DNA of 9,586 nucleotides from a virus (lineage: Duplodnaviria; Heunggongvirae; Uroviricota; Caudoviricetes): IMG/VR virus record IMGVR_UViG_3300015179_000037, positions 1-9,586 of that record; one strand, written 5' to 3'. Within the stretch, counting starts at the first letter, position 1; every line of letters starts with the position of its first letter. This document shows positions 2,439 to 7,637 of this stretch, one piece after another. The notes below the pieces were generated by a model, which made no database searches, was not told the DNA's origin, and worked only from the letters and a program-made list of their open reading frames with translations. The position numbers were made by a program, and so were the translations under genes.

Positions 2439-2733
2439 AGCCAGAATTACACCTGATGAAGTCAGGGCACATCTTCGACTTGATGATGATTTATCCGGTG
2501 AAGGCGAACTTCTGAAAATGTATACCGATGCGGCGCTGGAAGCCTGCCAGAAGCATATCGGGAAACGTTTTGAAGACGGGCTGGAATTTACCCCGGCAAT
2601 GCGTGTTGGTTGCCTGATGTACATCGCTTTCCTGTACGAGAACAGGGAAGCAGTTTCACCAGTGGAGCAGTCTGAACTGCCTATGGCTATTTCTGCGCTC
2701 TGGTCGGTTTATCGTGATGTGGGGGTGTACTGA
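2431..2733 (+). CDS. Head-tail connector / DNA-packaging protein, gp6-like
   Basis: The N-terminus MSEARITPDEVRAHLRLDDDLSGEGELL...AALEACQKHIGKRF fits the gp6-like connector family. GGGAG precedes the ATG at 2431, and the gene overlaps the portal stop by 8 nt. Confidence 0.75.
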   Translation: MSEARITPDEVRAHLRLDDDLSGEGELLKMYTDAALEACQKHIGKRFEDGLEFTPAMRVGCLMYIAFLYENREAVSPVEQSELPMAISALWSVYRDVGVY

Positions 2734-3173
2734 TGCCGTGGCAACCATTAAGGCGATGCACTGAGCCGGGCTGTAATAAGCGCGTGAAGTCCGGCAAGTG
2801 TGAAGAGCACAGACGGGCTGTATGGCGTGCAGAGGATGCCAGACGGGGACACCGCCGCGCGCGCGGGTATTCCCGACAGTGGGACAAATACCGCGCCCTG
2901 TACCTGAGCAAAAACCCGTTATGCGTGCGTTGTCTGGCTAAGGGGATTTATACGCCAGCTCTTGTGGTGGATCACATCATCCCCATCAATGGCGGCGGTG
3001 ATGTTCTCTTCTGGCCTGAGTGGAACCACCAGGCATTGTGCCAGACGTGCCACAACCGTAAGACGACACGGGAAGATCCAGCCACGAAAGCGAACCGTAA
3101 GGCGGGCATGTATCGCGAGCAGGAAGAACGGGCGGCACACCGTAACGACTGGATGTATGGCGATGATGACTGA
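2733..3173 (+). CDS. HNH endonuclease, terminase-associated type
   Basis: Cys pairs (CTEPGC, CVRCL, CQTCH) plus DHIIP and NH motifs are characteristic of HNH nucleases. It sits immediately upstream of the terminase genes, as HNH does in HK97-like packaging modules. Its ATG overlaps the connector stop (TGATG). Confidence 0.85.
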   Translation: MPWQPLRRCTEPGCNKRVKSGKCEEHRRAVWRAEDARRGHRRARGYSRQWDKYRALYLSKNPLCVRCLAKGIYTPALVVDHIIPINGGGDVLFWPEWNHQALCQTCHNRKTTREDPATKANRKAGMYREQEERAAHRNDWMYGDDD

Positions 3174-3461
3174 ACAGGAGCAAACCAGGCTGATACGTGG
3201 GTTGATAAGGCAGCGTGACACATGGAAGACACAGGAGACAGGGCACAAAGCCAACAGGACAGGGCGCACAAAACGCACCACAGCGAAGTGATTAACCGAC
3301 CGTGACCGCGAGGTCATGGAATGTTTTCGCAATCGCTGGTGAGGCCGTCAGAGGGGGTGGGGGTGGTTTTCAGGACGAAACCGCCCCTGCCGGACACCGA
3401 CCGCCTCCTCAAATTTTTGTGCACGGGAATTTTTTTGAAAATAATTGGGCGAAAAAAGAAC
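3174..3461 (+). promoter_or_regulatory. Candidate cos / terminase-recognition region between HNH and TerS
   Basis: This is the only sizeable non-coding gap in the module. It contains an imperfect direct repeat (ACAGGAGACAGGGCACAAA at 3231-3249 and ACAGGACAGGGCGCACAAA at 3254-3272), a G-tract GGGGGTGGGGGTGG at 3353-3366, and T/A runs just before the TerS start. Confidence 0.35.
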
Positions 3462-3818
3462 ATGGCAAGACCACCAAAAGCCCCCGCTTACCTGGATGAA
3501 ATCGCGGTCAGGCAGTGGAAGGAAAAATCGCGCCAGCTTTCCGGACGGGAAGACCTTACTCCCGCCGACTGGAGCAATCTGGAGCTGTATTGCGTTAACT
3601 ACTCCATATACCGCAAAGCCGTCGAAGACCTTGCCACGCGCGGGTTCAGCATTGTTAACAGTCAGGGCAGCGAGAGCAGAAACCCCGCCCTGAGCGCAAA
3701 GGCTGACGCTGAAAGAATAATGATCAAAATGGCTTCTTTGCTGGGTTTTGACCCGGTAAGTCGCCGCAGAAATCCACCGGAAACAGAGGAAGAGGACGAG
3801 CTTGACCGCCTGGCATGA
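3462..3818 (+). CDS. Terminase small subunit, P27 family
   Basis: The translation MARPPKAPAYLDEIAVRQWKE...LTPADWSNLELYCVNYSIYRKAVEDL fits the P27-type TerS. I chose the internal ATG at 3462 rather than the track start at 3321, because the extension runs through the G-tract and T-run region. Confidence 0.75.
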   Translation: MARPPKAPAYLDEIAVRQWKEKSRQLSGREDLTPADWSNLELYCVNYSIYRKAVEDLATRGFSIVNSQGSESRNPALSAKADAERIMIKMASLLGFDPVSRRRNPPETEEEDELDRLA

Positions 3819-5463
3819 GTACGCAGAAGGCGTAAAAAACGGCAAAATTACGGCCTGTAAACGACTGAAACAGGCCGTTAAACGGTATTTTTCTGACCTT
3901 GAAAACCCCCTTTACACGTTCGATCCGGAGGTCGTGGAGCGGTTTATTGCCTTTTCCAGGGTGTGTCCGCACGTAAAAGGCGCAATGCGCGGTAGCCCCA
4001 TTGAGCTGGAGCCGTGGCAGCAGTTCGCCTTTGCGTGCATCCTGGGCTTTAAGGTTAAGGCCACCGGACGGCGCAAATACACCAGCGCATTCATTGAAGT
4101 GCCGCGAAAAAATGCCAAATCCACGGTCGCCGCTATCCTGGCTAACTGGTTTCTGGTTATGGAAAACGGGCAGCAGGATATTTACACCGCCGCTGTGAGT
4201 CGTGATCAGGCGCGGATCGTGTTTGATGATGCGCGTCAGATGTGCCTTTTATCCCGACCGTTACGAAAGCGGGTAAATATTCAGGCACACAAGGTGATAC
4301 ACCCGAAAACCAACAGCCTGTTAAAGCCACTGGCAGCAAAAGCGGCAACCATTGAAGGTACAAACCCGAGTCTTGCCATTGTGGATGAATATCACCTGCA
4401 CCCTGACAACGGGGTTTATTCCGCGCTTGAACTGGGAATGGGGGCGCGTCCGGAGGGGCTGTTATTTGCCATCACCACATCGGGGAGCAACGTTGTTTCA
4501 GCCTGTAAACAACACTATGACTATTGCTGCCAGATACTGGATGGTGAAGAGGTGAACGAATCCATGTTCGTGCTGATTTACGAGCTGGATGATGAAAGCG
4601 AGGTTGACGATCCGGCGATGTGGATAAAGGCGAATCCCAATATCGATGTTTCCGTCGATCGTGAAAAACTGGCCTCAACCATCCAGAAAGCGCGGGGTAT
4701 TCCGTCGCAGTGGGTGGAAATGCTCACCAAGCGATTCAATATCTGGTGTCAGGGGGCTACGCCGTGGATGGGTAACGGTGCATGGGCGGAGTGCGCCGGA
4801 ACGTTCGCAGAGGCGGATTTATACGGTCAGGAGTGCTACGCGGGGCTGGACTTATCATCAACCAGCGATATTTCCAGCGTGTGCTATGCCTTTCCGGTCG
4901 GTAAAAAGATTATGCTGGTTTCCCGTCACTATCTGCCGGAATTTCAGCTACAGAACCCCGCCAATAAAAACCGCGCCATCTATCGCCAGTGGGTAAAGGC
5001 GGGCTGGATACGCACAACACCGGGTGACTGCATTGATTATGACCGTATCCGTGATGACATCATGGCGGATGCAGAGAATTTCAATATCAGGCTGGTGGGC
5101 TTCGATACATGGAACGCCACGCACCTGAGGACGCAGCTACAGGGGGCAGGATTTGAGGTGGAGCCGTTCCCGCAAACATACCTTCGTTTCAGTCCGGCGG
5201 CGAAATCGTTCGAAGTTTTTGTTAACCGGAAGGTGATTGTGCATCGTGGCGATCCGGTGCTGGCCTGGTCAATGAGTAATGTTGTGATGCAGAGTGACGC
5301 GAACGCCAATATCAAGCCGAACAAGAAAAAATCATCCAACAAGATAGACCCGAGCGTTGCGGCGCTGATGGCGTTTGGCACATTCCAGGCAGAGCATGAG
5401 GAATTTGCATTTGATATGAGCGACAGCCACAAAGAGCGGCTTGCGGCGTTTGATGGGGTATGA
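3802..5463 (+). CDS. Terminase large subunit (ATPase/nuclease)
   Basis: A 553-aa product with a Walker-A-like VPRKNAKST, a Walker-B-like LAIVDE and a C-terminal nuclease-like region. The start appears to be TTG at 3802, overlapping the TerS stop. Confidence 0.9.
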   Translation: MTAWHEYAEGVKNGKITACKRLKQAVKRYFSDLENPLYTFDPEVVERFIAFSRVCPHVKGAMRGSPIELEPWQQFAFACILGFKVKATGRRKYTSAFIEVPRKNAKSTVAAILANWFLVMENGQQDIYTAAVSRDQARIVFDDARQMCLLSRPLRKRVNIQAHKVIHPKTNSLLKPLAAKAATIEGTNPSLAIVDEYHLHPDNGVYSALELGMGARPEGLLFAITTSGSNVVSACKQHYDYCCQILDGEEVNESMFVLIYELDDESEVDDPAMWIKANPNIDVSVDREKLASTIQKARGIPSQWVEMLTKRFNIWCQGATPWMGNGAWAECAGTFAEADLYGQECYAGLDLSSTSDISSVCYAFPVGKKIMLVSRHYLPEFQLQNPANKNRAIYRQWVKAGWIRTTPGDCIDYDRIRDDIMADAENFNIRLVGFDTWNATHLRTQLQGAGFEVEPFPQTYLRFSPAAKSFEVFVNRKVIVHRGDPVLAWSMSNVVMQSDANANIKPNKKKSSNKIDPSVAALMAFGTFQAEHEEFAFDMSDSHKERLAAFDGV

Positions 5464-5753
5464 CGAGAATGAGCGAAACCGAACTACTAAAAATAATCCG
5501 CCGCGTTACCGGAATCAGCCAGGAAGCAGGCAAACAGGAGGCCACGCAGCCGGACAGCGTGATAGCCAAAAATTACGCGCGTGTGGTGGCTGAGGTGATG
5601 CGCCGTGACGGTATCGAGCTTAACGGCGTGGATATACGCAATATACGCACCAGAGTTCTGGAGTTGTTGTCATATCGTCGCCGCGTGGAGATGTACCAGG
5701 AGAAAGAAAAAATTACTTACCACTGGAAGAAGCCGGAGCGGTTGCGGCGGTAA
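5460..5753 (+). CDS. Hypothetical 97-aa basic protein, translationally coupled to TerL; function unknown
   Basis: Its ATG overlaps the TerL stop (GTATGA). I recognise no family from the sequence (MTRMSETELLKIIRRVTGISQEAGKQ...RRRVEMYQEKEKITYHWKKPERLRR). It is the last ORF before the non-coding island end. Confidence 0.5.
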   Translation: MTRMSETELLKIIRRVTGISQEAGKQEATQPDSVIAKNYARVVAEVMRRDGIELNGVDIRNIRTRVLELLSYRRRVEMYQEKEKITYHWKKPERLRR

Positions 5754-6046
5754 CTGGTTGATATTCCCGACGTTCCAAAAATGGGTTGGCTACACCCCTC
5801 ACAACTACGACATTTTCGCAGTTTAATTAATGGTCAGTTTAATCGCTAACCCGCTGATATTTTCGGAAACCTCAATTTGAGGAGACCGGAACGTCTACAT
5901 GGCTGCATCACCATAACGATGATTTAGCCCACCAGCAACCATAACGATTTCCGTTACAGTTGATGTGCTTTTTTGCTGGTAAGGCCTAACCCGTTGATTC
6001 TTCCACAATCCCCCATTGGGGGAGGCTGGGCGGCCTGCTGTGGGCT

Positions 6047-6065
6047 TTTCCACCATTGGTGGAAA
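6047..6065. repeat. Perfect 19-bp palindrome TTTCCACCATTGGTGGAAA, sharing a CCATTGG core with the 13-bp palindrome CCCCCATTGGGGG at 6010-6022
   Basis: Read directly from the sequence; the two palindromes are about 25 bp apart edge to edge. Confidence 0.9.
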
Positions 6066-6284
6066 GGTGCAGATCTGGATCATCATTACGGTGATCAAGG
6101 GTATGTAAAACCCACCAGCCTGATTGACATTTAACCGGAAAAAAGCCAGGTAGCCCCGTTATGGGGATCCCCATATCGACATTAACGCCCCTCATGAATT
6201 GGCGTGCTTCTCCCTGGAAAGATGACCCGCCTGTATATTTCTTGTGTCTATTTGTTCCACGTTGTTTCATACAGTGCACCGAAC

Positions 6285-6308
6285 GGTGTAGTTAATGGTG
6301 TAGTTAAT
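6285..6308. repeat. Perfect tandem duplication, 2 x 12 bp (GGTGTAGTTAAT)
   Basis: Read directly from the sequence; it lies close to the inferred island/chromosome junction. Confidence 0.9.
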
Positions 6309-6352
6309 TTGCGATTTTTGGCACTTCTTGCAGTGTATATTGTTTAATTAAA

Positions 6353-6391
6353 TCAATGCGTTATTGAAAATAAGTTATAGATATATCCCAT
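6353..6391 (-). pseudogene. allE: Probable orphaned 5' end of allE (ylbA): start codon and RBS retained after allC, gene body replaced by the insertion
   Basis: On the minus strand the allC stop is followed by AGGAG and, 10 nt later, ATG GGA TAT, which then runs into a stop after 12 codons (MGYIYNLFSITH*). From memory, E. coli AllE begins MGY and starts a few bp after allC. Confidence 0.4.
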
Positions 6392-6401
6392 TTATGACTC
6401 C

Positions 6402-7637
6402 TTATTTCTGCCAGGCAAGTTGATAAAGCATGAGTGCCAACGTTTTGACCCCTTCGGCAAGGTCGGTAATATTGGTGCGTTCCGCCGGGTTATGGCTGAT
6501 CCCATTGATGCTGGGAATGAAAATCATGCAGGTTGGTACGCGAGGCGCGAAAATTTGCGCGTCGTGCCCGGCACCACTGTGCATCACCCGGTAATTCAGT
6601 TTTTCGCTTTCACACAATTCTGTCAGGGTGGCGACCAGGTCCTTATTCATCGGCACGGGTTCTTCGTCCATCCATAAATCGATATCAATACCAATGTCCA
6701 TTTCATCGCAAATCGCCCGCATGTCGTTTTCTAACTGCTGAGTGAAATCGCGCAGCACGGCGGCGTCGGTATGACGACAATCAATGGTGAATGTGGTTTT
6801 ACCCGGCACCACATTCACCGTATTCGGGCGCGGCTCCACCTTACCAAAGGTCAGCACCAGCGGGTCGCCCATCTTTTTCGCTTTTTCGATCGACTGATGG
6901 CAAATGCGACTGAAAGCGTAAACTGTATCACGACGGTAACCCATCGGCGTGGTGCCTGCATGGTTTGATTCGCCGTTCAGCGTCACCGTATAGCGACGTT
7001 GCCCGACAATTGCATTCACCACGCCAATTGATTGCCCATTACTTTCCAGCACACAGCCCTGTTCGATATGCAGTTCGACAAAGGCTTTAATATCCTGACG
7101 CGGAGTTAGCGGGGCGTCCGGCAGAGTAAATCCGCAAGCCTTCATCGCATCGACAAAACTATTTCCTTTGGCATCACAGATATTCCGCACGTCGTCAGGA
7201 TTCGCCAGCCCAAAGATATTTTTACTGCCCCAGAAAACATACGGGAAGCGGCTGCCTTCTTCTTCCGCCATCGCCACCACTTCAACCGTACGTAACGGCG
7301 CGCCGTATTGCCTTTTCAACCAGTCAATTGCCAGCCACGCCGCCAGCGCGCCGAATTGCCCGTCGAGGTTACCGCCGTTAACCACGGTATCGATATGCGA
7401 ACCGCTCAGAACCACTTCCTGTGGATATTCGGTGCCACTCAGGCGACCGTATAAATTCCCCACTTCATCGAAACGTGTTTCCAGCCCGCTTGCTGCCATT
7501 CTTTTTTTAAATTGCTGCTGGGTTTCCAGCCATTCCGGCGAATAAAGTAAACGGGTCATCCCACCCGTTGGGTCAGCGCCAAAAGAGGAAAGCCAGGGCA
7601 GCGTTTCTTCTATGGCTTGACGGAAATGTGTAATCAT
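6402..7637 (-). CDS. allC: Allantoate amidohydrolase
   Basis: The translation MITHFRQAIEETLPWLSSFGADP...LMLYQLAWQK matches E. coli AllC as I recall it across its length. The start is the ATG at 7637 with an AGGA RBS; the track start at 7655 is an upstream extension. Confidence 0.93.
   Translation of the reverse strand: MITHFRQAIEETLPWLSSFGADPTGGMTRLLYSPEWLETQQQFKKRMAASGLETRFDEVGNLYGRLSGTEYPQEVVLSGSHIDTVVNGGNLDGQFGALAAWLAIDWLKRQYGAPLRTVEVVAMAEEEGSRFPYVFWGSKNIFGLANPDDVRNICDAKGNSFVDAMKACGFTLPDAPLTPRQDIKAFVELHIEQGCVLESNGQSIGVVNAIVGQRRYTVTLNGESNHAGTTPMGYRRDTVYAFSRICHQSIEKAKKMGDPLVLTFGKVEPRPNTVNVVPGKTTFTIDCRHTDAAVLRDFTQQLENDMRAICDEMDIGIDIDLWMDEEPVPMNKDLVATLTELCESEKLNYRVMHSGAGHDAQIFAPRVPTCMIFIPSINGISHNPAERTNITDLAEGVKTLALMLYQLAWQK

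What the first reader, a model, noticed from the sequence alone, without database searches (positions are those of the whole stretch)
6010..6175. Cluster of GC-rich palindromes with a shared CCATTGG core in the island's terminal non-coding region
CCCCCATTGGGGG (13 bp, 6010-6022) and TTTCCACCATTGGTGGAAA (19 bp, 6047-6065) are perfect odd-centred palindromes sharing the core CCA-T-TGG. TATGGGGATCCCCATA (16 bp, 6160-6175) is a third perfect palindrome. A 9-bp-arm palindrome is not expected by chance in this length. As DNA these look like operators for a dimeric regulator. As RNA they would form very stable hairpins, so a structured non-coding RNA is also possible. The two minus-strand ORFs the track calls here do not look like proteins.
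Basis: seen in the sequence. Interest (0 to 1): 0.5.

Follow-up and report, generated by a model that had tools for sequence, protein, structure and literature searches.

The report
Phage Roi-type binding-site array in satellite
The palindromes are real and belong to a repeated set of short DNA sites, each a two-fold symmetric sequence next to an IHF-protein site, copied from a control site found inside a regulator gene (roi/ant) of lambda-like phages. This suggests, without proving it, that this phage-parasitic island binds or senses its helper phage's regulator.

Summary
All three palindromes are at the stated coordinates. A fourth (5870-5882) was missed. Four perfect dyads in 621 bp compare with 0.35 expected.

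The window is an E. coli capsid-forming phage satellite (cf-PICI) inserted between allE and allC. The palindromes lie in its 620-bp non-coding right end.

Palindromes 1 and 2 and the 5870 dyad are not independent. They belong to an array of roughly 45-nt units: an IHF consensus (WATCARNNNNTTR), a 10-nt spacer, then a dyad. All four IHF consensus hits in the window fall in this stretch.

The units match about 50 nt inside lambdoid phage roi/ant genes (Rha-family DNA-binding proteins). Every allele tested there, including HK022 roi, has a dyad at the same codons. Seven of ten alleles also have the IHF consensus at the same spacing. Dyad sequences differ by compensatory changes. The window holds three allelic versions.

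Best reading: DNA sites for helper-phage Roi/Ant-type dimers plus IHF, acting as decoy or sensor. Binding is inferred, not shown.

An RNA reading, a cos site and terminators are not supported. Palindrome 3 is a separate conserved dyad of unknown partner.

The module is unannotated and occurs in 1073 of 5426 complete E. coli genomes.

The parts
5469..5753 (+). orf94, a small conserved protein of unknown function (phrog_1561) that always precedes the array. Its stop codon lies inside the first IHF consensus.
   Evidence: The AF2 model is low confidence and shows three helices. No PDB or Pfam match.
5751..5784 (-). Unit A1. IHF consensus TATCAACCAGTTA at 5751-5763, then a degenerate dyad CCAAAAATGG at 5775-5784. 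In related islands this dyad reads CCCAAAAATGGG.
5846..5889 (-). Unit B1. IHF consensus TATCAGCGGGTTA at 5847-5859, a 10-nt spacer, then the dyad CCTCAATTTGAGG at 5870-5882. This is the roi allele type of PhiR49_2, HK620 and H-19B.
   Evidence: 94% identity to a stretch inside roi of phage PhiR49_2. Matches roi of about 40 phages..
5907..5923 (.). Left arm of a long-range inverted repeat (ATCACCATAACGATGAT). Its partner is 6079-6095, so the pair brackets palindromes 1 and 2.
   Evidence: I2, 88% complementary. An analogous pair with a different sequence occurs in L004 and L016. Function unknown.
5936..5962 (-). Imperfect hairpin CAACCATAACG-ATTTC-CGTTACAGTTG. Its mismatches are A.C on the plus strand, which become G.U on the minus strand, in five variants.
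   Evidence: from the listed examples. This is the only local hint of a minus-strand RNA.
5986..6029 (-). Unit B2. IHF consensus AATCAACGGGTTA at 5987-5999, a 10-nt spacer, then the dyad TCCCCCATTGGGGGA at 6009-6023. This is palindrome 1 of the finding. The dyad resembles roi of Stx2_KH16-043, and the spacer and IHF site resemble roi of JLK-2012.
   Evidence: (D1).
6025..6068 (-). Ant-type site. The dyad TTTCCACCATTGGTGGAAA at 6047-6065 is palindrome 2 of the finding. There is no adjacent IHF consensus.
   Evidence: 89% identity to a stretch inside ant of Salmonella phage SSU5, which encodes ITFPPMVEKPTAGRPAT. In other islands it reads TTTACCCCAyTGGGGGAAA, an A:T to C:G double change.
6079..6095 (.). 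Right arm of the long-range inverted repeat (ATCATCATTACGGTGAT).
   Evidence: I2.
6157..6178 (.). Palindrome 3. TATGGGGATCCCCATA at 6160-6175 is perfect, and the imperfect form spans 22 nt. The centre is a GATC. This is a separate element with no phage homologue and no IHF site at the unit spacing.
   Evidence: (I7). Extended to the 24-bp TCGATATGGGGATCCCCATATCGA in L010/L011 and shortened in the L004 type. Absent from L125, which keeps palindromes 1 and 2.
6285..6308 (+). Tandem GGTGTAGTTAAT x2, probable arm-type integrase sites of attR.
   Evidence: The same tandem lies just upstream of int at the island's left end (L036 5699-5722).
6351..6363 (+). IHF consensus AATCAATGCGTTA next to the att core. 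It is in the opposite orientation to the array units.
6383..6395 (.). Approximate att core, ATATCCCaTTTAT, repeated at the left end as ATATCCCtTTTAT.
   Evidence: read directly from the sequence.

Best explanation
Palindromes 1 and 2, with the unlisted dyad at 5870-5882, are the two-fold symmetric halves of a tandem array of composite DNA sites at the right end of an E. coli phage satellite (PICI). Read on the minus strand, a canonical unit is a 13-19-bp dyad, a 10-nt A/T-rich spacer, then an IHF consensus. The units match a roughly 50-nt element inside lambdoid phage roi/ant genes, which encode Rha-family DNA-binding proteins. That element sits about ten codons downstream of the putative recognition helix. 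In phages the dyad sequence differs by allele, and the satellite array holds several allelic versions side by side. Inferred mechanism: dimers of helper-phage Roi/Ant-type proteins, stabilised by IHF bending, bind these boxes. The array would then act as a decoy that titrates the phage regulator, or as a sensor of helper infection placed upstream of attP-int in the excised circle. Shown here: the homology, the fixed architecture, the dyad covariation, the IHF consensus enrichment and the linkage to orf94. Inferred: which protein binds and what follows from binding. Palindrome 3 is a different conserved dyad of unknown partner, lying between the array and the integrase arm sites.
For: Context. 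The window is a cf-PICI with capsid, protease, portal, HNH, TerS and TerL genes, inserted between allE and allC.

IHF sites. All 4 perfect IHF consensus hits in the 9.6-kb window lie in 5751-6363, against 0.67 expected. Three are co-oriented, and two of those lie exactly 10 nt from a perfect dyad.

Repeat structure. 42 distinct units from 34 related loci show the same motif-to-dyad layout with different dyad sequences.

Phage homology. Unit B1 is 94% identical to a stretch inside roi. Palindrome 2 is 89% identical to a stretch inside SSU5 ant. A unit in L016 matches phiP27 ant. The homology is limited to about 55 nt.

Phage alleles. Ten roi/ant alleles all carry a dyad at the homologous codons. 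Seven have the IHF consensus with its first base 17 nt from the dyad centre (16 nt in CP-1639). These include HK022 roi, with CTGCAtTGCAG, then 11 nt, then AATCAATGATTTA.

Covariation. On 22 distinct units, 88% of cells are paired, 5 of 7 pairs change on both sides, and one pair shows TA, GC, CG and AT. No shuffle of 500 reached this, and slid controls gave 28-55%.

Constraint inside roi. A run of 12 codons over the site has no synonymous change, while about 45% of codons differ elsewhere. The helix and the dyad are exchanged together between alleles.

Not coding in the satellite. Stop codons flank the fragments and there are no family matches.

Distribution. The module occurs in 1073 of 5426 complete E. 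coli genomes. It is found in several satellite types: HNH/TerS/TerL cf-PICIs; two with other capsid genes (L003, and L125 with a protease-capsid fusion); and islands with a lambda-type cosN. It occurs at several integration sites.

From memory only. Clerget and Boccard 1996 reported that HK022 Roi binds a site within its own gene close to an IHF site, and that IHF stabilises the binding. The title was confirmed in a reference list but the paper could not be read.
Against: No binding data exist for any of these sequences, and the key paper could not be read here. The position of the experimentally mapped Roi site in HK022 was therefore not compared with the predicted dyad.

Some units were collected by searching for the IHF-like motif, so motif conservation among them is partly circular. 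In phages the IHF consensus overlaps the conserved peptide I-N-x-L-G, so coding constraint could explain it there.

Palindrome 2 and the SSU5, pKp383 and APSE-7 alleles lack the IHF consensus.

A-type units (CGCAAaaTTGCG) have no phage counterpart.

The perfect dyads could reflect recent capture from phages rather than selection in the satellite.

The minus strand of the region folds much better than shuffles (z = -6.4, 20 shuffles).

No Rha-family gene is present in this island, so a binder must come in trans.
Confidence: 0.5

Rival explanations
1. Recombination debris. The units are short non-functional remnants of repeated exchanges between satellites and phage roi/ant genes. They were then multiplied by unequal crossing-over between the conserved 38-nt box. 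The palindromes are inherited from the phage genes and have no role in the satellite.
For: The units are fragments of coding sequence with broken frames. Copy number varies from about 2 to 8 between islands. Phage roi alleles are mosaic around the site. Unit B2 looks chimeric between two roi alleles.
Against: Only the roughly 50-nt site is retained each time, never more of the gene. Dyads and the IHF consensus stay perfect while the frames decay. Some satellite dyads are longer than most roi alleles found, for example 12-bp arms in L016. The spacing is fixed in every copy. The module persists in 20% of E. coli genomes and in several satellite types.
Confidence: 0.2
2. Structured RNA. The hairpins act in a transcript. 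That transcript would be either the 3' untranslated tail of the late operon (plus strand, stabilising or insulating hairpins) or a minus-strand non-coding RNA starting near 6075.
For: The minus strand folds at -193 kcal/mol against -166 for shuffles (z = -6.4), and the plus strand at z = -2.3. There is a promoter-like site on the minus strand at 6109..6082. The hairpin at 5936-5962 has A.C mismatches on the plus strand, which are G.U on the minus strand, in five variants. The island encodes a ProQ/FinO-family RNA-binding protein.
Against: No Rfam family matches, even at E = 10. No terminator follows any of the dyads. The dyads have 0-1-nt centres, so an RNA hairpin would have to open its inner pairs. 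Across 32 loci the wobble-type mismatches are balanced (34 against 31), and which strand folds better varies from locus to locus. Dyad changes go from Watson-Crick to Watson-Crick with almost no G.U intermediates. An adjacent consensus for IHF, a protein that binds double-stranded DNA, at fixed spacing has no RNA rationale.
Confidence: 0.12
3. The array is bound by a protein of the satellite itself, most simply the always-adjacent orf94. It would serve for autoregulation, or orf94 would also target the matching boxes inside helper roi genes, which lie between P and Q, to interfere with helper late expression.
For: orf94 and the array are inseparable in every island examined, even when the att arm and the packaging module differ. 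The first unit overlaps the orf94 stop codon. orf94 is helical with a basic C-terminal tail.
Against: orf94 is 80-98% identical across most of the islands examined (70% in L125), while the dyads differ widely. It has no recognisable DNA-binding fold or family. The model confidence is too low to compare folds.
Confidence: 0.1
4. Packaging or integration site. The palindromes are the cos site recognised by the satellite's HNH/TerS/TerL, or part of the attP intasome.
For: IHF sites are typical of cos and attP. The region lies next to attR and downstream of terL.
Against: The same palindromes occur in satellites with other packaging systems. In some of those a lambda-type cosN lies upstream of orf94. 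HNH-type cos sites normally lie between the HNH and terS genes (general knowledge of HK97-like phages), and a G-rich candidate exists there at about 3340-3460. The palindromes are 320-375 bp from the att core. The arm-type repeats shared by both island ends are a different sequence. L125 keeps palindromes 1 and 2 with an unrelated att arm.
Confidence: 0.04

Closest known systems
Intragenic Roi-binding site with linked IHF site in the roi gene of phage HK022 (Clerget and Boccard, J Bacteriol 1996; recalled from memory, paper not readable here)
   Same: About 50 nt of sequence homology to roi alleles. The layout is the same: dyad, 10-11 nt, then WATCARNNNNTTR. HK022 roi itself carries such an element at the homologous codons.
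   Different: In the satellite the element is non-coding, is present in several tandem copies, and combines different allelic dyads in one array. The satellite in this window has no roi/ant gene. Binding has not been shown for any copy.
Allele-specific operator and repressor sets of lambdoid phages (immunity types)
   Same: A family of dyad sites whose symmetric positions change together, and which are exchanged together with the adjacent putative recognition-helix segment.
   Different: The sites lie inside the regulator's own coding sequence in phages, are paired with IHF, and are collected as a mixed array on a different mobile element.
IHF-containing nucleoprotein sites such as lambda attP and cosB
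   Same: Several co-oriented IHF consensus sites are interspersed with protein-binding repeats, next to an att site.
   Different: The interspersed elements are dyads of varying sequence, not arm-type or R-type direct repeats. The array is independent of integrase type and packaging type.
Centromere-like repeat arrays such as F sopC (43-bp repeats, each with an inverted repeat)
   Same: Tandem units, each holding a short inverted repeat.
   Different: Centromere repeats share one dyad sequence bound by one protein. Here the dyads differ from unit to unit, and no partition genes are present.
lambda nut sites (boxA plus boxB hairpin) and REP/BIME elements with IHF sites
   Same: A linear motif is followed at a fixed distance by a short palindrome. 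BIME-1 elements combine palindromes with an IHF site.
   Different: There is no boxA or REP consensus. The centres are 1 nt rather than loops. There is no strand bias. The sequence homology is to roi/ant coding DNA.

Membership tests
Roi/Ant (Rha-family) intragenic dyad + IHF element | Sequence homology to the stretch of roi/ant that encodes residues about 38-56 | tested here: met
   Unit B1 is 94% identical over 36 nt and alignable over about 50 nt. Palindrome 2 is 89% identical over 44 nt to SSU5 ant. Unit B2 aligns over about 55 nt to the KH16-043 and JLK-2012 roi alleles.
Roi/Ant (Rha-family) intragenic dyad + IHF element | A dyad with its centre 17 nt from the first base of a WATCARNNNNTTR consensus | tested here: met
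   Met for units B1 and B2 in the window and for six phage alleles including HK022. The CP-1639 allele has the consensus with the dyad centre one base closer. Not met for palindrome 2 or its SSU5 counterpart, which have the dyad only.
Roi/Ant (Rha-family) intragenic dyad + IHF element | Location inside the regulator's own open reading frame | tested here: not met
   In the satellite the fragments are flanked by stop codons, and no Rha-family gene is present.
Roi/Ant (Rha-family) intragenic dyad + IHF element | Bound by Roi, with binding stabilised by IHF | not testable with these tools
   Needs gel-shift or footprinting experiments. The published HK022 data could not be read here.
Described non-coding RNA family (Rfam) | Match to a covariance model at or near its gathering score | tested here: not met
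   No match at gathering thresholds over the whole window. At E up to 10, only one chance-level match, IS009 at 11.9 bits against a threshold of 117.
Intrinsic (Rho-independent) terminator | G+C-rich hairpin followed by a T run | tested here: not met
   The only terminator-like site in 5400-6500 is at 5739-5756, no more than shuffles give. None follows the palindromes on either strand.
cos site of the cf-PICI HNH/TerS/TerL packaging machine | Specific to satellites that have this packaging module | tested here: not met
   The same palindromes occur in satellites with a lambda-type cosN and in satellites with other capsid and terminase genes.
cos site of the cf-PICI HNH/TerS/TerL packaging machine | Cohesive ends of packaged DNA map here | not testable with these tools
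   No packaged-DNA end data were available. The cf-PICI papers searched do not map cos.
attP arm (integrase arm-type sites) | Repeat present in both arms and linked to the integrase type | tested here: not met
   The repeat shared by both ends is GGTGTAGTTAAT x2. Palindromes 1 and 2 persist with an unrelated att arm in L125.

The most novel reading that the evidence does not exclude
E. coli phage satellites carry a 'library' of operator-like boxes that copy the self-binding sites of many allelic helper-phage Roi/Ant regulators, each paired with an IHF site. The array would capture whichever allele the infecting helper encodes. It would use that event either to disarm the phage regulator or as the still-unidentified signal by which Gram-negative PICIs sense their helper.
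Probability: 0.25. Interest if true: 0.8.

Novelty: new variant of a known kind. Interest (0 to 1): 0.6.

Why it matters
How Gram-negative PICIs recognise their helper phages is still open: the 2018 PICI paper says the phage-encoded inducer was still under study.

An unannotated non-coding module is present in about a fifth of complete E. coli genomes. It copies, in several allelic forms, a probable self-binding site of a widespread phage regulator. This gives a concrete hypothesis that is cheap to test: a satellite reading or titrating a helper protein through DNA mimicry.

The result also points to an unusual arrangement in the phages themselves. The regulator's putative recognition helix and a dyad likely to be its own site lie within about 90 bp of one another in the same gene, and they are exchanged together between alleles.

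If binding is not found, the array is still a useful marker of this satellite family and of exchange between satellites and lambdoid phages.

Tried and rejected
Rfam at gathering and permissive thresholds found nothing. The tRNA/tmRNA scan found nothing.

The terminator and promoter scan found no terminator after any dyad, and only one weak minus-strand promoter-like site.

A lambda cosN search in the window gave chance-level hits only. GGGCGGCCTGCT at 6028 has 3 mismatches.

A sigma-54 promoter reading of TGGCAC-N4-TGCA near 6322 was rejected by eye because the spacing is two bases short.

A small membrane protein or Ant pseudogene on the minus strand was rejected. The similarity to Ant is only 18 residues, the variants differ by frameshifting indels, and there are no family matches.

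A 44-aa plus-strand ORF at 6161-6295 was rejected. By my own count on the alignments, the substitutions are about 6 non-synonymous to 3 synonymous, which is close to neutral.

orf94 as Rpp was rejected because Rpp is 144-153 aa and there is no PDB match. The orf94 fold prediction was too poor (pLDDT 65) to justify a fold search.

The genome-contig scan with orf94 returned only one locus.

The literature search for the Roi binding-site paper failed. The paper is not held.

A-type units have no phage homologue.

A strand-bias test for RNA was negative overall.

Full report
**Observation.** The first extends to 15 nt (TCCCCCATTGGGGGA, 6009-6023). A fourth perfect dyad, CCTCAATTTGAGG at 5870-5882, was missed. 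Between 5754 and 6374 there are four perfect dyads with arms of at least 6 bp, against 0.35 expected from 2000 dinucleotide-preserving shuffles (P about 0.0005). The 9-bp-arm dyad alone has P about 0.007.

**Context.** The window is E. coli chromosome. Positions up to about 6374-6383 belong to a capsid-forming phage satellite (cf-PICI). Its genes here are:
- prohead protease, portal and connector
- HNH (2733-3173)
- TerS of the P27/Terminase_4 type (3462-3818)
- TerL (3802-5463)
- a 94-aa protein, orf94 (5469-5753, phrog_1561)

The island sits between allE and allC, and the core-genome match starts at 6374-6383. Its integrase is at the left end on the same strand. In the excised circle the 620-bp non-coding stretch therefore lies upstream of attP and int. 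The stretch is unannotated in every E. coli genome that has it. The ORFs that overlap it match no protein family.

**Anatomy.**
- All four perfect matches to the IHF consensus WATCARNNNNTTR in the 9.6-kb window fall in this stretch, against 0.67 expected for the whole window. They are at 5751-5763, 5847-5859 and 5987-5999 on the minus strand, and 6351-6363 on the plus strand.
- The second and third lie exactly 10 nt from the dyads at 5870-5882 and 6010-6022. The two segments are 70% identical direct repeats (D1).
- I collected 34 related loci from E. coli genomes and IMG/VR. The stretch proved to be a variable array of 2 to 8 such units.
- On the plus strand a unit is TAAC-N3-4-YTGAT, about 10 nt, then a short palindrome. 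The palindrome sequence differs from unit to unit: CGCAAaaTTGCG, CCTCAAtTTGAGG, CCCCCAtTGGGGG, CAGCCaacGGCTG, TTCCACAGaCTGTGGAA, and a 25-bp perfect dyad in L016.

**Origin.**
- Only two short pieces of the stretch match anything in 50,697 phage records, and both lie inside genes.
- 5855-5890 (unit B1) is 94% identical to roi of phage PhiR49_2. 6025-6068 (palindrome 2) is 89% identical to ant of Salmonella phage SSU5.
- Roi and Ant are homologues with an N-terminal Rha-type domain. The two palindromes occupy homologous codons: PQIE against PPMV.
- I then examined ten roi/ant alleles: PhiR49_2, JLK-2012, PA5 (annotated as 933W-like Roi), Stx2_KH16-043, an IMG/VR type, CP-1639, HK022, Klebsiella pKp383, APSE-7 and SSU5. 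Every one has a dyad at these codons, with an allele-specific sequence.
- Seven of the ten have a perfect IHF consensus whose first base is 17 nt from the dyad centre (16 nt in CP-1639).
- Read on the minus strand, the window's units match these alleles. The 5870 dyad is the PhiR49_2/HK620 type. Palindrome 1 has a KH16-043-like dyad with a JLK-2012-like spacer and IHF site. Palindrome 2 is the SSU5-ant type.
- The homology stops after about 55 nt.
- The 'shared CCATTGG core' is therefore common descent.

**Selection on the dyad.** On 22 distinct satellite and phage units:
- 88% of dyad cells are complementary.
- Five of seven pairs show changes on both sides.
- One pair occurs as TA, GC, CG and AT.
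- No shuffle of 500 reached these values, and sliding the partner by 1-3 columns drops pairing to 28-55%.

Within roi, two alleles that differ at about 45% of codons, mostly by synonymous changes, share a 12-codon run over the site with no change at all. Another pair of alleles is mosaic, with the putative recognition-helix segment and the dyad exchanged together. In the satellite the fragments are out of any reading frame, yet they keep the dyad, the spacing and the IHF consensus.

**DNA or RNA.** The whole stretch folds better than shuffles, especially as minus-strand RNA: z = -6.4 against -2.3 for the plus strand, with 20 shuffles each. One hairpin (5936-5962) has mismatches that would be G.U only on the minus strand. 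Against an RNA reading:
- Across 32 loci the wobble-type mismatches are balanced, 34 against 31, and neither strand folds consistently better.
- The dyads have 0-1-nt centres.
- Their changes go from Watson-Crick to Watson-Crick.
- No terminator or Rfam family is present.
- A consensus for IHF, a protein that binds double-stranded DNA, is fixed beside them.

I conclude these are DNA sites.

**Not cos, not attP.**
- The same palindromes occur in satellites that have a lambda-type cosN just upstream of orf94 (L012, L015, L034). They also occur in satellites with lambda-like capsid, decoration and Nu1-like TerS genes (L003), and in one with a protease-capsid fusion (L125).
- The tandem GGTGTAGTTAAT x2 at 6285-6308 recurs just upstream of int at the left end. 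It is the likely arm-type integrase site, together with the IHF consensus at 6351-6363 and a core near 6383-6395.
- L125 keeps orf94 and palindromes 1 and 2 but has an unrelated att arm and lacks palindrome 3.
- L010 and L011 keep palindrome 3, there a 24-bp dyad, with yet another att arm.

Palindromes 1 and 2 therefore travel with orf94. Palindrome 3 is a separate conserved dyad with no phage homologue and an unknown partner.

**Mechanism.** From memory, Clerget and Boccard (1996) showed that HK022 Roi binds a site within its own gene next to an IHF site, and that IHF stabilises the complex. Only the title could be confirmed, and the paper is not held. HK022 roi does carry the predicted composite element. 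The most likely reading is that the satellite's boxes bind Roi/Ant-type dimers of helper phages together with IHF. What follows from binding is inference. It could be titration of the phage regulator, a helper-sensing switch, or a roadblock upstream of attP-int.

**Rivals.**
- Non-functional recombination debris (0.2)
- Structured RNA (0.12)
- Binding by the satellite's own orf94 (0.1). That family is narrow and its structure prediction is poor.
- A packaging or integration role (0.04)

**Distribution and novelty.** The module is present at 1323 places in 1073 of 5426 complete E. coli genomes, and none is annotated. I found no description of it in the PICI papers I searched. I rate it a new variant of a known kind. 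Protein-binding dyads with IHF sites are familiar. A mixed-allele array of a phage regulator's intragenic site on a satellite is not.

Noticed in passing
window 3340-3460: The gap between the HNH gene and terS holds a G-rich run (GAGGGGGTGGGGGTGG) followed by A/T-rich repeats (AATTTTTGTG, AATTTTTTTG). By analogy with HK97-like phages, this is where the cf-PICI cos site would be expected.
   Followed up: partly
window 6285-6308 and L036 5699-5722: The tandem GGTGTAGTTAAT x2 is present at both ends of the island. It is conserved among islands inserted at allC, phoQ and tqsA, which suggests integrases that share an arm-binding domain but differ in core specificity.
   Followed up: partly
L036 5590-5690 and window 6240-6270: Repeated TGTTTCA(C/G) / TGTTCCAC motifs lie near both island ends. 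They could be sites for an excisionase or AlpA-type protein, or iterons like those of P4 (TGTTCACC).
   Followed up: no
L012, L015, L034 (about 70-60 nt upstream of the orf94 start): Classical PICIs carry a lambda-type cosN (AGGTCGCCGCCC, the reverse complement of GGGCGGCGACCT) immediately upstream of orf94. orf94 therefore lies on the cosQ side of cos in those elements.
   Followed up: partly
L039 vs L067 (roi codons 23-51): Phage roi alleles are mosaic. The segment that encodes the putative recognition helix and the dyad about ten codons downstream are exchanged together as one cassette. Helix variants (..TIETL, ..SIERL, ..SIDRL) track the dyad classes (TCAA/TTGA, CCCA/TGGG, TGCA/TGCA).
   Followed up: partly
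window 6070-6170: Four GATC (Dam) sites lie within 100 bp: AGATCT, GGATCA, TGATCA, and the centre of palindrome 3. About 0.4 would be expected. The first three are absent from the L003-type variant.
   Followed up: no
window 5907-5923 / 6079-6095; L004 and L016: A long-range inverted repeat brackets palindromes 1 and 2. Other islands have an analogous pair with a different sequence (TTATGATTA / TAATCATAA), which could be chance or a conserved long-range pairing.
   Followed up: partly
L001 4716-5258 (outside the window, same island): The island encodes a ProQ/FinO-family RNA-binding protein, an Icd-like protein and an SSB. An RNA partner for the ProQ-like protein is not known.
   Followed up: no
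L005, L013, L025 (array variants): Some arrays contain an extra insert of about 150 nt with GTGAC repeats and a canonical terminator (ATGACGTGGCCAACGTCATTTTTT) that is absent from the window.
   Followed up: no
window 5751-5753: The orf94 stop codon TAA forms the TTA of the first IHF consensus on the other strand. Internal A-type units repeat the last bases of orf94 (GCGGTAAC), as if the gene's 3' end had been duplicated along with the unit.
   Followed up: partly
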